This document shows, piece by piece, positions 10,027 through 12,256 of a stretch of 23,607 nucleotides of DNA. Positions within the stretch are counted from its first letter, which is position 1, and each line of letters opens with the position of its first letter. The notes under the pieces are model-generated. The model searched no databases. It had not been told where the DNA came from and saw nothing but the letters and a program-made list of their open reading frames with translations. The position numbers and the translations under genes were made by a program. The DNA is from Candidatus Hermodarchaeota archaeon (GTDB lineage Archaea; Asgardarchaeota; Lokiarchaeia; Sigyniarchaeales; SOKP01), in assembly GCA_048885925.1 (NCBI GenBank), contig JBHLLG010000041.1, positions 1 to 23,607 on the forward strand, read 5' to 3'.

Positions 10027-10611
10027 TTAGAGTGGTTTAGCTAAAATTGCTTTAACTCTTAATTGATCGAATAGACTTGTAGGCATTGTTTTAATTAGAC
10101 ATACCGTATCTGCTCCACGTCCAGTTCCAGCAATACATATGATATCTTTTTCTATATTACTAATTAATCCTGCATCAGCCACCATTGTAGCAATCTCGAT
10201 GCATACCTTTATCCCTTGACTAAAAAGAGTGCGAAAATATTTTGCCATTATCTCTACGGGACCCCATTGCTGTAATGAAATTCTCATACTACGTTCTGGA
10301 CCTGCTAAAGCATGAGTACCAATAAAGAACTTCATTCCTTTATTTTTAAGACTTGTAATTTTTTCTTCTGGAAACTCCTGTCTCTTATTTACACCGGCAA
10401 AATAATAAGAATGTGTTACTACAATCAGATTATAGTCAGTTGGATTGAAAATTTCAAGTGCTTTTTCAGCAGTCATACCAGTTGTACTAGCCATAACAAT
10501 ATCTTTAATACCAAATTGATTTGCATATTTTTGTGCAATTTCTAGTGCTTTTTTAGTGTTATGCGGGCCACCCTCCTCAAAATAAGTGACTTCAATTTTA
10601 AGATCAGTCAT
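10027..10611 (-). CDS. Pyruvate kinase C-terminal-like alpha/beta domain protein (MTH1675-like)
   Basis: YFEEGGPHNT, VMASTTGMTA, VVTH, FSQGIKVCIEIATMVADAG and AGTGRGADT motifs typical of this archaeal family. Confidence 0.8.
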   Translation of the reverse strand: MTDLKIEVTYFEEGGPHNTKKALEIAQKYANQFGIKDIVMASTTGMTAEKALEIFNPTDYNLIVVTHSYYFAGVNKRQEFPEEKITSLKNKGMKFFIGTHALAGPERSMRISLQQWGPVEIMAKYFRTLFSQGIKVCIEIATMVADAGLISNIEKDIICIAGTGRGADTVCLIKTMPTSLFDQLRVKAILAKPL

Positions 10612-10804
10612 ATTACATCATACTTATTAATTTTAACAGTTAAAATATAATTTTTTTATTAAGATAAAATACGATTATACTTAAATGATTATTATTGAGT
10701 TTAAAGTTGCTCTAAATAAAGGTTAAGATAGTTTTAAAAAGATCAAAATTTAAATAGATTTAACTATATTTTTTGTAAATTTAATAACAAACATGGGATA
10801 TCAT

Positions 10805-12256
10805 ATGAGTGAAAGAAAAGTATCTTTAAAAGAGAAAATACTATTTGGGACAAACGCTTTTCCAGATCAAATTTGAGTGAATTATAACGTCACTAAAGAT
10901 CAATTAACATACCAAGCGTTTACGATCTATGTTTTTACTTTTTATTTTGCAGTTGTAGGTCTTTCAATGCTTGAAATGTGGATTGGATTCGTTTTATGGG
11001 GTATTTGGAATATGTTTAACGACCCATTACTTGGAGCATTAAGTGAGAAAACTAAGCAGAAAGGGAAATTAGGAAAAAGAAAGTTTTATTTAATTATATC
11101 TTTTATTCCCTTAGCGTTGATAATGATTTTTCTTTTTACAGTACCTGCCAATTTTAAATTCTGGTATTTTATATTCATTATCTTTACTTTTGAGTTCTTT
11201 TACACAATGTTTTCAGTAAATACTAATGCTGTATTCCCAGAAATGTTTCCAACAGAAAAACAAAGAGGAGAAGTAAATGTTTTTATAAAAATTTTTACTA
11301 TGATTGCAGTAATATTTGCATCATTAATTCCAACTATTATTGTATCTCCCTCTTTGGTTCCTTTACTTGATCCAGGGGATCCAGGTTATGCTGCAGAAGT
11401 TGCTGACATTAATTTTAAATATATAGTCTCAGGAGTTGTTCTAGCTATAATAATATTGATCATGGCCGTATTATTCATATTCTTTGGGGTAAAAGAAAAG
11501 GAAGAGCAATTAATTGATTTTCAAAAACGACCAGGGTTCTTCGCATCATTGAAAATTACATTCTCAAACCGAACGTTTATAAAATTCACACTAGGAAATA
11601 TGCTTATTTGGTATTGCTTTAATGTATTATTAACTGTATTTCCACTTTATTCCGTTTATGTTCTTGGAAGATCTGAAGGAGCCCTTTTAATTGGAATTAC
11701 TTTAATGTTAGCACTTCTTTCTGCTGCTTTTCTTATGCCCATTCAAGCAAGGATTAGAAAAAAATATGGTACTCGTAAAGGCTTGATGATTGGCTTAGCA
11801 ATATGGATAGTCACATTATTTCCATTAGTTTTTCTATCAAACAATGAAATAAGTAGAACATTATCATTTTTTGTTTTCATATCGATAGGATTTGGATTAT
11901 CAGCAGCGCTATTTTTTATTGATATTATTCATGGTGATGTAATTGATCAAGATGCACTTAATTTTGGTGTAAAAAGAGCAGCGAGTTATTATGGAGTAAA
12001 TGCTTTTATCCATCGCTTTTCAATGATACTTGGAATTACAACTATTTATATCATATTTTCAGGAACTGGATGGAGTAGATATGTACCAGTCGTTGCTGAT
12101 CCATTATTAAGAGAAATAGGTATAAAAGCTTTGATGTTTCTGTTTCCTTCAATAGCACTCATTGGATCGCTCCTTTTTTTCAAATTTTACGATTTACACG
12201 GTGAAAAACTCGAATGGGTAAGAGAGGAACTAGAAAAGCATCCTGAATTAAAATAG
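10805..12256 (+). CDS. GPH/MelB-like (MFS_2) transporter interrupted near the 5' end by a 33-nt insert with an in-frame TGA
   Basis: ATG 10805 (or in-frame ATG 10793) gives MSERKVSLKEKILFGTNAFPDQ, a typical GPH N-terminus, in frame with the 10877 ORF. NDPLLGALSE, about 12 TMs and DVIDQD...KRAASYYG motifs. TGA at 10874-10876. Confidence 0.85.
10864..10903 (+). repeat. 7-bp direct repeat AGATCAA (10864-10870 and 10897-10903) around a hairpin
   Basis: Read directly from the sequence. Confidence 0.9.
10871..10903 (+). other. Candidate bulge-helix-bulge (BHB-type) intron / 33-nt insertion
   Basis: GATC(10865-68) pairs with GATC(10898-901), each followed by a 3-nt bulge (AAA, AAT). Inner stem TTT(G)AGTGA/TCACTAAA. 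Removing 10871-10903 yields ...CCA GAT CAA TTA ACA... (PDQLT) with no stop. Confidence 0.55.

What the first reader, a model, noticed from the sequence alone, without database searches (positions are those of the whole stretch)
10864..10905. Candidate bulge-helix-bulge intron inside a protein-coding (MFS transporter) gene
Seen: the MFS frame from ATG 10805 reads ...NAFPDQ-I*VNYNVTKDQ-LTYQAF, an 11-codon insert containing TGA. As RNA, GAUC(10865-68) pairs with GAUC(10898-901) as a 4-bp central helix. Each strand is followed by a 3-nt bulge (AAA 10869-71; AAU 10902-04). The insert closes a stem (UUU-g-AGUGA/UCACU-AAA) around a 9-nt loop. Established: the archaeal splicing endonuclease EndA cuts after the second nucleotide of each bulge, and mRNA introns of this type are rare, best known in crenarchaeal cbf5. 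Applying that rule cuts after 10870 and 10903, removes exactly 33 nt including the stop, and restores an in-frame 472-aa transporter. Inference: an EndA/RtcB-spliced mRNA intron in an Asgard archaeon, possibly regulating transporter expression. Caveats: the outer exon-exon helix is only about 1 bp (A10864-U10905), so the motif is relaxed. The 7-bp direct repeat also fits a duplication or mobile-element scar, and a repeat containing palindromic GATC produces part of this geometry automatically.
Basis: partly seen in the sequence, partly recalled or inferred. Interest (0 to 1): 0.88.

Follow-up and report, generated by a model that had tools for sequence, protein, structure and literature searches.

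The report
Mini BHB intron in transporter gene
A 33-base, stop-containing insert in an Asgard archaeon's transporter gene looks and evolves like an RNA intron removed by the tRNA-splicing enzyme, and similar mini-introns interrupt several other genes of the same genome.

Summary
An MFS_2 transporter gene (ATG 10805 to stop 12256) is interrupted by 33 nt (10871-10903) carrying TGA 10874-76. The insert folds as a 4-bp helix (GAUC/GAUC), two 3-nt bulges and an 8-bp hairpin.

Orthologues without the insert read FPDQ-[LMIV]TYQ: 15 of 16 loci and 34 of 38. That is the junction the EndA cut rule predicts.

Seven species-level sequences carry the insert. The flanking gene is under purifying selection (dN/dS 0.106 at dS 0.72). 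The insert varies far less than fourfold sites (5/33 vs 77/138, p 3e-5). All changes lie in the loop or keep pairing by wobble (140/140 cells paired).

Two carriers have TAA where a bypass would need a CAA landing codon. A contig from another study carries the insert.

The same genome holds further 30-34-nt inserts of the same HBh' geometry in an EF-2 paralogue, a Ras-like GTPase, CdhC and an AMP-phosphorylase-like gene. Removing them restores split Pfam domains or the insert-less orthologue reading.

No RNA data were available, so splicing is inferred. Verdict: a relaxed BHB mRNA intron, one of a lineage-specific set. Confidence 0.85.

The parts
10805..10870 (+). Exon 1 of the MFS_2 transporter gene (22 codons, MSERKVSLKEKILFGTNAFPDQ)
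   Evidence: The start codon and reading frame are conserved in G001 (22 codons, 3 conservative replacements and 3 synonymous changes). Orthologues have the same N-terminus joined directly to exon 2.
10871..10903 (+). 33-nt intervening sequence (proposed BHB/HBh' mini-intron), phase 0
   Evidence: Absent from 15 of 16 orthologous loci and 34 of 38. Present in 7 species-level sequences. 5 of 33 columns vary against 77 of 138 fourfold sites.
10874..10876 (+). In-frame TGA inside the intervening sequence
   Evidence: Relatives carry further stops in the insert (TAA in L059; TAA at 10901-03 in L074 and L080), so read-through or recoding is not a common solution.
10865..10868 (+). Central helix H, 5' strand (GAUC, exon 1)
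   Evidence: Pairs with 10898-10901. 28 of 28 cells paired in 7 sequences.
10898..10901 (+). Central helix H, 3' strand (GAUC; GGUC, GGUU or GAUU in relatives)
   Evidence: A10899G in 3 of 7 and C10901U in 2 of 7 sequences. Both keep pairing as wobble pairs.
10869..10871 (+). 5' bulge AA|A, closed by H and h'; predicted cut after 10870
   Evidence: Geometry. The cut between bulge nt 2 and 3 follows the rule stated for cbf5 introns in PMC2738675 (passages read). The junction matches insert-less orthologues.
10902..10904 (+). 3' bulge AA|U (AA|A in relatives), not closed by an adjacent exon helix; predicted cut after 10903
   Evidence: It lies in a 12-nt single-stranded stretch, 10902-10913.
10872..10897 (+). 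Intron hairpin h': 10872-75 with 10894-97 and 10877-80 with 10890-93, A10876 bulged, loop 10881-89
   Evidence: MFE. 56 of 56 cells paired in 7 sequences when G10875 is paired with U/C10894. The 3 variable loop columns all lie in 10881-89.
10852..10859 (+). Distal exon-exon helix, 5' strand (AAACGCUU)
   Evidence: Pairs with 10914-21 in the MFE and centroid folds. Invariant and fully Watson-Crick in 7 of 7 carriers. Partly formable in insert-less orthologues too, so its role is uncertain.
10914..10921 (+). Distal exon-exon helix, 3' strand (AAGCGUUU)
10904..12256 (+). Exon 2 (450 codons plus stop)
   Evidence: Intact in all carriers whose locus covers it (450-461 aa; L074 open to the end of the held locus). 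dN/dS 0.106 against G001.

Best explanation
The 33 nt at 10871-10903 are an archaeal bulge-helix-bulge intron of the relaxed HBh' type inside the coding sequence of an MFS_2 transporter of a Promethearchaeota (Loki-type Asgard) archaeon. In the pre-mRNA, GAUC 10865-68 (exon 1) pairs with GAUC 10898-901 (the intron's 3' part) to form the 4-bp helix H. Each strand is followed by a 3-nt bulge. The intron's own 8-bp hairpin (h') closes the 5' bulge. No adjacent exon helix closes the 3' bulge. An 8-bp exon-exon helix further out (10852-59 with 10914-21) may hold the exons together. The splicing endonuclease EndA is inferred to cut between the 2nd and 3rd nucleotide of each bulge, after 10870 and after 10903. 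RtcB is inferred to join the exons and circularise the 33-mer. This removes the TGA and yields a 472-aa transporter reading ...FPDQ|LTYQ.... Shown here: the anatomy; the exact match of the predicted junction to insert-less orthologues; selection on the gene and on the insert; pairing-preserving variation; presence of EndA alpha and RtcB; and sister introns of the same design in other genes. Inferred: the cleavage and ligation themselves, the enzyme, and any regulatory use.
For: (1) Junction. Insert-less orthologues read FPDQ-[LMIV]TYQ in 15 of 16 loci and 34 of 38 loci.
(2) The interrupted gene is functional. Against the carrier G001, exon 2 (450 codons) has dN 0.076, dS 0.72 and dN/dS 0.106. 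Exon 1 keeps its ATG and frame. Exon 2 is intact in all carriers.
(3) The insert is constrained. 5 of 33 columns vary against 77 of 138 fourfold sites in 5 species (Fisher p 2.7e-5). In 6 sequences the figures are 6 of 33 against 49 of 68 (p 4e-7).
(4) Structure is kept. 140 of 140 cells are paired in 7 sequences. The three variable paired positions change G-C/G-U, U-A/U-G and G-C/G-U. The other variable insert columns are in the loop.
(5) Rivals fail. Extra stops occur in relatives. GTG 10877 is followed by TAA after two codons in G001. The CAA 'landing' codon is TAA in L074 and L080. No other copy exists in the genome. Of 5 genomes among 53 in the genus with the hairpin pattern, 3 are this locus and 2 are unrelated.
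(6) DNA from another study carries the insert (X4 contig).
(7) Machinery. The EndA alpha subunit matches PF01974 at 101.7 bits. Its best solved match is chain 3p1z_B (E 5.5e-38), aligned without gaps over the N-terminal loop region. RtcB matches at E 4.8e-171. Asgard EndA is described as (alpha-beta)2 with the L1 loop that gives broad specificity (PMC5829648, passages read).
(8) Sister introns in the same genome have identical geometry. EF-2 paralogue, 30 nt: 21 insert-less loci read MTDSD|DEEQERGIT; in 14 carriers 97.6% of 252 cells are paired, one G-C to A-U compensatory pair occurs in 4 sequences, and the covariation score is above 500 of 500 shuffles. A second site, AH|IDHGK, is interrupted in 4 other species. 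Ras-like GTPase, 31 nt: Pfam Ras positions 1-34 | 38-157. CdhC, 30 nt: PF19436 positions 1-154 | 156-242. AMP-phosphorylase-like gene, 30 nt. The 31-nt length rules out tolerated in-frame insertions; two further candidates are 32 and 34 nt.
Against: There is no RNA evidence: no run on record as RNA holds the locus, so splicing is inferred only. The strict hBHBh' motif is not met. The adjacent exon helix is one pair and is not conserved, so the 3' cut site sits in a 12-nt open stretch. Folding energy is not better than shuffles (z -0.42 and -1.08). The MFS insert shows only one-sided, wobble-keeping changes and no two-sided compensatory change. The shuffle control therefore has no power (500 of 500). 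Only one EndA subunit was found; no beta subunit appeared with PF01974, PF02778 or a self-search. The motif is not specific on its own. One search gave 197,250 ORF-joining hits. For strict motifs, the true cut restores ORFs at 47 loci against 39-49 for shifted cuts. The distal exon helix is also largely formable in insert-less orthologues (8 of 8 pairs in 5 of 34, 7 of 8 in 10 of 34). Carriers are not one clade in the exon-2 protein tree (3 changes needed; one origin not excluded).
Confidence: 0.85

Rival explanations
1. The insert is removed at the RNA level, but by something other than EndA/RtcB. An unknown nuclease-ligase pair or another hairpin-recognising activity could do this, and the BHB-like geometry would be incidental.
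For: No cleavage assay or RNA data exist for this locus. The strict motif is not met because there is no adjacent exon helix. No EndA beta subunit was found.
Against: In 8 of 8 sites examined a 4-bp helix followed by 3-nt bulges sits exactly where the EndA rule needs it to restore the protein. These are the 7 G000 sites other than C1, plus EF2p site A in other species. At the two EF2p sites the boundaries are unique, with no repeat ambiguity. HBh' substrates are the known range of (alpha-beta)2 enzymes (PMC5829648; PMC2738675).
Confidence: 0.07
2. Programmed translational bypass, like phage T4 gene 60 or mitochondrial byp elements. The ribosome takes off at CAA 10868-70, skips 33 nt over the stop and hairpin, and lands on CAA 10901-03.
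For: The window has matched CAA codons 33 nt apart, a stop two codons after the first, and a hairpin in the gap.
Against: The would-be landing codon is TAA in L074 and L080, while the rest of the structure is kept. AUU, not the stop, follows the take-off codon. Sister inserts have no matched codons at their ends: EF2p has GAU against AAA, and the GTPase insert is phase 1. Comparison with gene 60 and byps rests on recall, not on a call.
Confidence: 0.03
3. A decaying pseudogene: a neutral insertion scar (duplication or footprint of a small mobile element with a 7-bp target-site duplication) that has inactivated the transporter.
For: There is an in-frame stop and a 7-nt direct repeat. Other genes in this MAG and its relatives carry single in-frame stops that look like point nonsense changes.
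Against: dN/dS is 0.106 over dS 0.72 with the insert present in both genomes. Exon 2 is intact in all carriers. The insert is far more conserved than fourfold sites. The repeat itself decays while pairing is kept. No other copies exist.
Confidence: 0.03
4. The gene is expressed in two pieces or from an internal start. A 23-aa peptide would be made from ATG 10805, plus a transporter starting at GTG 10877 or later. Alternatively the stop is read through or recoded; the genome appears to use selenocysteine.
For: GTG 10877 directly follows the TGA and opens a 459-aa ORF. In-frame TGA at conserved Cys positions of HdrA-like genes suggests Sec use in this genome.
Against: In G001 the GTG frame hits TAA after two codons, and other carriers have TAA inside the insert. 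No carrier-wide start or single recodable stop exists. Exon 1 is conserved as coding and is fused to exon 2 in all insert-less orthologues.
Confidence: 0.02

Closest known systems
cbf5 pre-mRNA intron of Crenarchaeota (Desulfurococcales, Sulfolobales)
   Same: It is a short intervening sequence inside a protein-coding gene with a mostly unconventional (relaxed) BHB. It is cut between the 2nd and 3rd bulge residues by a hetero-oligomeric EndA, and it has been gained and lost among related species (PMC2738675, passages read).
   Different: The host gene (MFS transporter, not Cbf5), the position and the lineage (Promethearchaeota) all differ. Here several unrelated genes of one genome carry such inserts. 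In 2020 cbf5 was called the only reported BHB intron in an mRNA besides a Haloferax 5'-UTR case (PMC7714728, passages read). Splicing of cbf5 is shown experimentally; here it is inferred.
Non-canonical tRNA introns of Asgard and TACK archaea (HBh'/hBH motifs)
   Same: They share the motif class (four central pairs plus one flanking helix), the presumed enzyme and a patchy gain-loss pattern. Asgard tRNA genes are heavily interrupted (bioRxiv 10.64898/2026.10.13.758758, abstract and passages read; PMC11291895, passages).
   Different: The host RNA is an mRNA, so there is no tRNA scaffold to supply the exon helix. I did not analyse the tRNA introns of this genome beyond an ARAGORN listing (31 tRNAs, 19 with predicted introns; unreliable).
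Haloferax volcanii HVO_1309 5'-UTR BHB intron
   Same: It is an mRNA substrate of EndA, confirmed in vivo and in vitro (PMC7714728, passages).
   Different: It lies in the 5' UTR, not the coding sequence, so its removal does not repair a reading frame.
Translational bypass elements (T4 gene 60; mitochondrial byps)
   Same: They are short stop-containing inserts with a hairpin and, in this window, matched flanking codons (recalled knowledge; anatomy).
   Different: Matched codons are not conserved and are absent from the sister inserts. The conserved features are those of an RNA cleavage motif.
HAC1/XBP1 unconventional mRNA splicing (Ire1 plus tRNA ligase/RtcB) in eukaryotes
   Same: It works alike: a small non-spliceosomal intron defined by RNA stem-loops is removed from an mRNA by an endonuclease, and the exons are joined by a tRNA-type ligase (recalled, no call).
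   Different: The endonuclease (Ire1, not EndA) and the motif differ, and it is a stress-regulated switch. No regulation is shown here.

Membership tests
Archaeal BHB intron, strict hBHBh' motif | Exon-exon helix h of at least 2 contiguous pairs directly flanking H and closing the 3' bulge | tested here: not met
   Only A10864-U10905 can pair. It becomes G..A in L059 and L031. The nearest exon-exon helix starts 5 nt upstream (5' side) and 9 nt beyond the bulge (3' side).
Archaeal BHB intron, relaxed HBh' class | [quoted passage not shown] | tested here: met
   GAUC 10865-68 pairs with GAUC 10898-901. 28 of 28 cells are paired in 7 sequences, and two positions vary by wobble only.
Archaeal BHB intron, relaxed HBh' class | Three-nucleotide bulge 3' of each H strand, with at least one flanking helix (h') of 2 or more pairs | tested here: met
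   AAA 10869-71 lies between H and the 8-bp intron hairpin. AAU 10902-04 follows the 3' strand of H. The class definition is as used in bioRxiv 10.64898/2026.10.13.758758 (passages).
Archaeal BHB intron (any class) | Cuts between the 2nd and 3rd bulge nucleotide give the functional mature sequence | tested here: met
   The predicted junction FPDQ|LTYQ equals the reading of 15 of 16 and 34 of 38 orthologous loci that lack the insert.
Archaeal BHB intron (any class) | Host encodes a splicing endonuclease able to cut relaxed motifs ((alpha-beta)2 or epsilon2 type with a specificity loop) | tested here: inconclusive
   One alpha-type subunit is present (198 aa; PF01974 at 101.7 bits and PF02778). 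Its best solved match is 3p1z_B, gapless across the N-terminal loop. My identification of 3p1z as the A. pernix heterotetramer and of the loop lysine is recalled. No beta subunit was found in a genome 95% complete.
Archaeal BHB intron (any class) | RtcB-type ligase present | tested here: met
   PF01139 match at E 4.8e-171, G000:C12:26362-27669.
Archaeal BHB intron (any class) | Spliced RNA and/or circular intron observed; cleavage by EndA | not testable with these tools
   No run on record as RNA holds the stretch. The one RNA run laid gave nothing.
cbf5 intron family (homologous intron) | Located in the Cbf5 gene at the catalytic-Asp codon | tested here: not met
   The host gene is an MFS_2 transporter. 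It works like the cbf5 intron but is not a member of that intron lineage.
Translational bypass element | Matched take-off and landing codons conserved; stop directly after the take-off codon | tested here: not met
   The landing codon is TAA in L074 and L080. AUU lies between CAA and UGA.
Miniature mobile element with target-site duplication | Multiple copies in the genome or relatives; flanking duplication | tested here: not met
   There is no second copy in G000. In 53 genus genomes the hairpin pattern occurs at this locus in 3 genomes and as unrelated sequences in 2. The repeat is degenerate in relatives.

The most novel reading that the evidence does not exclude
Protein-coding genes of one family of Promethearchaeota carry a population of 30-34-nt BHB (HBh') mini-introns. 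At least five are well supported in this genome: the MFS transporter, an EF-2 paralogue, a Ras-like GTPase, CdhC and an AMP-phosphorylase-like gene. Two more are probable. The EF-2 paralogue is interrupted at two different sites in different species. The introns are present or absent from species to species, which implies repeated precise gain and loss. That would be an EndA-based, non-spliceosomal system of intron turnover in mRNAs of close prokaryotic relatives of eukaryotes. Until now this has been documented essentially for one gene (cbf5) in Crenarchaeota.
Probability: 0.75. Interest if true: 0.9.

Novelty: new member of a known kind. Interest (0 to 1): 0.85.

Why it matters
BHB introns in coding sequences have been treated as a curiosity of one crenarchaeal gene. 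PMC7714728 (2020, passages read) calls cbf5 the only such case besides a Haloferax 5' UTR. My searches of the held library found no report for Asgard protein genes. If the reading is right, three things follow.

First, gene callers mis-annotate these Asgard genes as truncated, split or pseudogenes, including central ones such as CdhC and an EF-2 paralogue.

Second, the substrate range of the Asgard endonuclease includes minimal hairpin introns without an exon helix.

Third, intron gain and loss in mRNAs can be studied in the archaeal lineage nearest to eukaryotes, with dozens of presence/absence polymorphisms in one genus.

It also gives a directly testable prediction (junction reads, 30-34-nt RNA circles) for any Loki-type culture or metatranscriptome.

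Tried and rejected
RNA evidence: the look-up of sequencing runs listed no RNA holder. The RNA run X22 laid nothing. X3 had no contig across 10840-10887. None of this bears on expression.

Metagenome scan: the first pattern found 0 stretches. The second found 7, of which 1 was the MFS insert (L074) and 6 were unrelated.

Motif-only census: the relaxed scan gave 197,250 ORF-joining candidates. A tighter filter still left 4,885 groups. The strict scan gave 8,194 motifs. With 3' cuts shifted by -4 to +4 nt as control, ORF-restoring loci numbered 47 at the true cut against 39-49 at shifted cuts. There is thus no enrichment, and the number of CDS introns in the genome cannot be estimated this way. 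The MFS intron itself fails the strict filter because its hairpin has a bulge.

Paralogue-based search (self-tblastn) recovers only genes with paralogues. It gave the MFS gene (positive control), the EF-2 paralogue and the GTPase. Its other hits were adjacent genes that are fused in paralogues (HdrA/MvhD-like) or selenocysteine codons.

Three other MFS paralogue matches with stops in relatives were checked. G017:C19 and G029:C2 have single in-frame stops with no insert; no insert was seen at G027:C37 either.

The idea that the distal exon helix is specific to intron carriers was rejected. It is largely formable in insert-less orthologues.

Monophyly of carriers was not obtained.

The C1:385613-385643 candidate was left uncertain: exon 1 has only 17 codons and no homology check was done.

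Supplementary files of papers were not consulted; those of the Asgard tRNA-intron preprint and of PMC5829648 may bear on EndA subunits.
Full report
WHAT IS THERE. The window is a whole 23.6-kb contig (G000:C41) of a 3.9-Mb, 29% G+C assembly. Orthologue contigs are titled Promethearchaeota/Promethearchaeia MAGs, so the organism is a Loki-type Asgard archaeon. From ATG 10805 a frame runs 22 codons, then reads I, TGA (10874-76) and nine more codons. It continues as a 450-codon frame to the stop at 12254-56. The read-through product is an MFS_2/GPH-type transporter (PF13347, E 2e-41).

GAUC 10865-68 can pair with GAUC 10898-901. Each is followed by three unpaired bases (AAA, AAU). Between them lies a hairpin with a 9-nt loop, and AGATCAA is repeated at 10864-70 and 10897-903. 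The predicted fold also contains an 8-bp exon-exon helix further out, 10852-59 with 10914-21. Folding energy is unremarkable (z -0.42 for 86 nt, z -1.08 for 51 nt). BHB-like motifs that join two ORFs are very common in this A+T-rich genome (197,250). The case therefore rests on comparison.

THE JUNCTION TEST. A search of 40 related genomes found orthologues at 74-87% identity. Of 16 orthologous loci examined, 15 lack the 33 nt and read FPDQ-LTYQAF (one reads FPDQ-FTYQ). One (G001) has the insert at the same place. In a second, named collection, 34 of 38 loci covering the junction lack it and read FPDQ-[LMIV][TS]YQ, and 4 carry it. A pattern search of all 53 genomes of the genus added G053, and a metagenome scan added L074. 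That makes seven species-level carriers. Cutting after the second base of each bulge is the rule stated for cbf5 introns (PMC2738675, passages read). It removes exactly 10871-10903 and gives the orthologue reading.

IS THE INTERRUPTED GENE ALIVE? Between the window and G001, which both carry the insert, exon 2 has dS 0.72 and dN/dS 0.106. Exon 1 keeps its start and frame, with three conservative and three synonymous changes, while the upstream spacer has diverged much more. Exon 2 is open in every carrier. The insert is constrained. Among five species, 5 of 33 columns vary against 77 of 138 fourfold-degenerate sites (p 2.7e-5). Among six sequences the figures are 6 of 33 against 49 of 68 (p 4e-7). 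A pseudogene scar would not behave so.

IS THE STRUCTURE KEPT? In the 7-sequence alignment, all 140 cells of the 20 proposed pairs are standard pairs. Three variable columns of the insert lie in the loop. The other three are paired positions that change only in ways that keep a pair: U/C10894 opposite G10875, A/G10899 opposite U10867, and C/U10901 opposite G10865. These are one-sided changes, so the shuffle control has no power. Slid registers give 25-45% paired.

Two consequences matter. The direct repeat decays (AGGTTAA in L074) while pairing is kept, so the repeat follows from a palindromic H plus similar bulges and is not a conserved duplication. And the codon at 10901-03 becomes TAA in L074 and L080, which removes the matched CAA/CAA pair that a ribosomal bypass would need.

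Read-through, recoding and an internal start also fail. Relatives have extra TAA stops in the insert, and GTG 10877 is not usable in G001.

IS IT REAL DNA? A contig of a run from another study spans 10600-11019 without gaps. It has six differences, one being T10894C, the same pairing-neutral variant seen in relatives. A contig of a third study skips the 33 nt but differs at 18 of 129 positions, so it comes from an insert-less relative.

MACHINERY. The genome encodes one EndA subunit (198 aa, N- and C-terminal endonuclease domains). Its best solved relative is chain 3p1z_B (E 5.5e-38), aligned without gaps through the N-terminal loop region. That this entry is the A. pernix heterotetramer, and that the loop carries the specificity lysine, I recall rather than tested. 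It also encodes RtcB. No beta subunit was found. Literature read in passages says Asgard archaea have (alpha-beta)2 EndA with the L1 loop that confers broad specificity (PMC5829648).

SISTER INTRONS. A self-tblastn of 2,943 long ORFs against the genome and the motif scan converged on further inserts of the same design. Each has H of 4 bp, 3-nt bulges, an 8-10-bp hairpin abutting both, a length of 30-34 nt and no adjacent exon helix.

- EF-2 paralogue, G000:C2:56851-56880, 30 nt with TAA. 21 insert-less loci of the genus read MTDSD|DEEQERGIT, exactly the predicted junction with no repeat ambiguity, and 14 carriers were aligned. 97.6% of 252 cells are paired. One pair switches G-C to A-U in four sequences. 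The covariation score exceeds all 500 shuffles.
- Second site in the same gene. Four other species carry a different 30-nt, 2-3-stop insert at AH|IDHGK with H GCGC/GCGU. One species has both inserts.
- Ras-like GTPase, C12:62467-62497, 31 nt, phase 1. Removal restores TIGVDF. Pfam Ras positions 1-34 end exon 1 and 38-157 begin exon 2.
- CdhC, C16:1810-1839, 30 nt. PF19436 positions 1-154 | 156-242 lie across the junction.
- AMP/thymidine-phosphorylase-like gene, C5:45896-45925, 30 nt. Removal restores DKHST|GGVPGNK. By span and stops alone, 21 of 47 listed places in the genus carry it; I did not inspect these.
- Probable: a CdhA/Prismane-like gene (34 nt) and a ferredoxin (32 nt).

Lengths of 31, 32 and 34 nt exclude tolerated in-frame insertions.

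In a phylum-wide sample, stop-bearing inserts in the EF-2 paralogue occur in 9 of 38 matching genomes of family f1 and 0 of 111 outside it.

WHAT REMAINS OPEN. Splicing itself is not observed. The strict motif is not met. The 3' cut site is closed only by the distant helix, which insert-less orthologues can also largely form, so its role is unclear. Carriers of the MFS intron are not one clade in the exon-2 tree (three changes; a single origin is not excluded). This implies precise losses or recombination, as described for cbf5. The number of such introns per genome cannot be estimated from the motif. A regulatory role is speculation.

COMPARISON AND NOVELTY. It works like the cbf5 pre-mRNA intron of Crenarchaeota and like non-canonical tRNA introns. 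It is not homologous to the cbf5 intron, because gene and site differ. A 2020 paper states that cbf5 is the only reported BHB intron in an mRNA besides a Haloferax 5' UTR (PMC7714728, passages). Recent Asgard papers I read in passages treat tRNA introns only. Seven library searches found no report of BHB introns in Asgard protein genes. The library is incomplete, and supplements were closed.

I therefore file the MFS insert as a new member of a known kind. The wider pattern of many polymorphic mini-introns in mRNAs of one Asgard family is the part that would surprise specialists.

VERDICT. This is a relaxed (HBh') BHB intron in an Asgard mRNA, confidence 0.85. Interest is 0.85.

Noticed in passing
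L086:2352-2381 (- strand) = G000:C2:56851-56880: A 30-nt insert with TAA lies in an EF-2-like GTPase paralogue, with the same HBh' design: H UCAG/CUGA, bulges AU|U and AA|G, a 9-bp hairpin. It is present in 14 inspected species of the genus and absent from 21 inspected loci, which read MTDSD|DEEQERGIT. One compensatory G-C to A-U pair is seen.
   Followed up: yes
L126 (G040:C3), L127 (G016:C4), L128 (G068:C13), L129 (G041:C42): between the codons for ...SITAH and IDHGKTT: A second, different 30-nt insert with 2-3 stops interrupts the same EF-2 paralogue in other species (H GCGC/GCGU, 8-bp hairpin). G016 carries both inserts. G000 lacks this one.
   Followed up: partly
L135:1568-1598 (- strand) = G000:C12:62467-62497: A 31-nt (phase 1) insert lies in a Ras/Roc-like GTPase. 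Removal restores TIGVDF, and the Pfam Ras model is split 1-34 | 38-157 between the two ORFs.
   Followed up: partly
L133:611-640 (- strand) = G000:C16:1810-1839: A 30-nt insert with TAG lies in CdhC (ACS beta subunit). PF19436 is split 1-154 | 156-242 across it. Only a few genus orthologues show a longer span with stops (not inspected).
   Followed up: partly
L131:1197-1226 (- strand) = G000:C5:45896-45925: A 30-nt insert with TAA lies in an AMP/thymidine-phosphorylase-like gene. Removal restores the DKHSTGG motif. About half of the genus orthologues are 30 nt longer with stops (by span only).
   Followed up: partly
L132:349-382 (+) = G000:C6:5548-5581; L134:358-389 (-) = G000:C31:18957-18988; G000:C1:385613-385643 (+): Further candidates of the same design: 34 nt in a CdhA/Prismane-like gene (restores a Cys-rich motif), 32 nt in a ferredoxin (restores CxxCxxCxxxC), and 31 nt in an unknown ORF (uncertain).
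   Followed up: partly
G000 contigs C5, C11, C23, C31, C47 (HdrA-like genes) and C7 near 34158 (-): In-frame TGA sits at conserved Cys positions of HdrA-like proteins and in a hydrogenase-like C-terminal motif. This suggests selenocysteine use in this genome.
   Followed up: no
window 10729-10750: An A/T-rich block (…GTTTTAAAAAGATCAAA…) about 55-75 nt upstream of ATG 10805 is conserved between the window and G001, while the rest of the spacer has diverged. It is a candidate TATA/BRE promoter element.
   Followed up: no
L083 (G017:C19) and L084 (G029:C2); G000:C21:14033-14611 and other places: Single in-frame stops without any insert occur in otherwise conserved genes (MFS paralogues, small GTPases). 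They could be point nonsense changes, sequencing errors or recoding. They differ from the mini-introns.
   Followed up: partly
L025 (G001:C330:1-1603) and L028 (G001:C393 end): In G001 two contigs end or overlap within exon 1 and the insert of the MFS gene, so the assembly breaks right at this locus.
   Followed up: no
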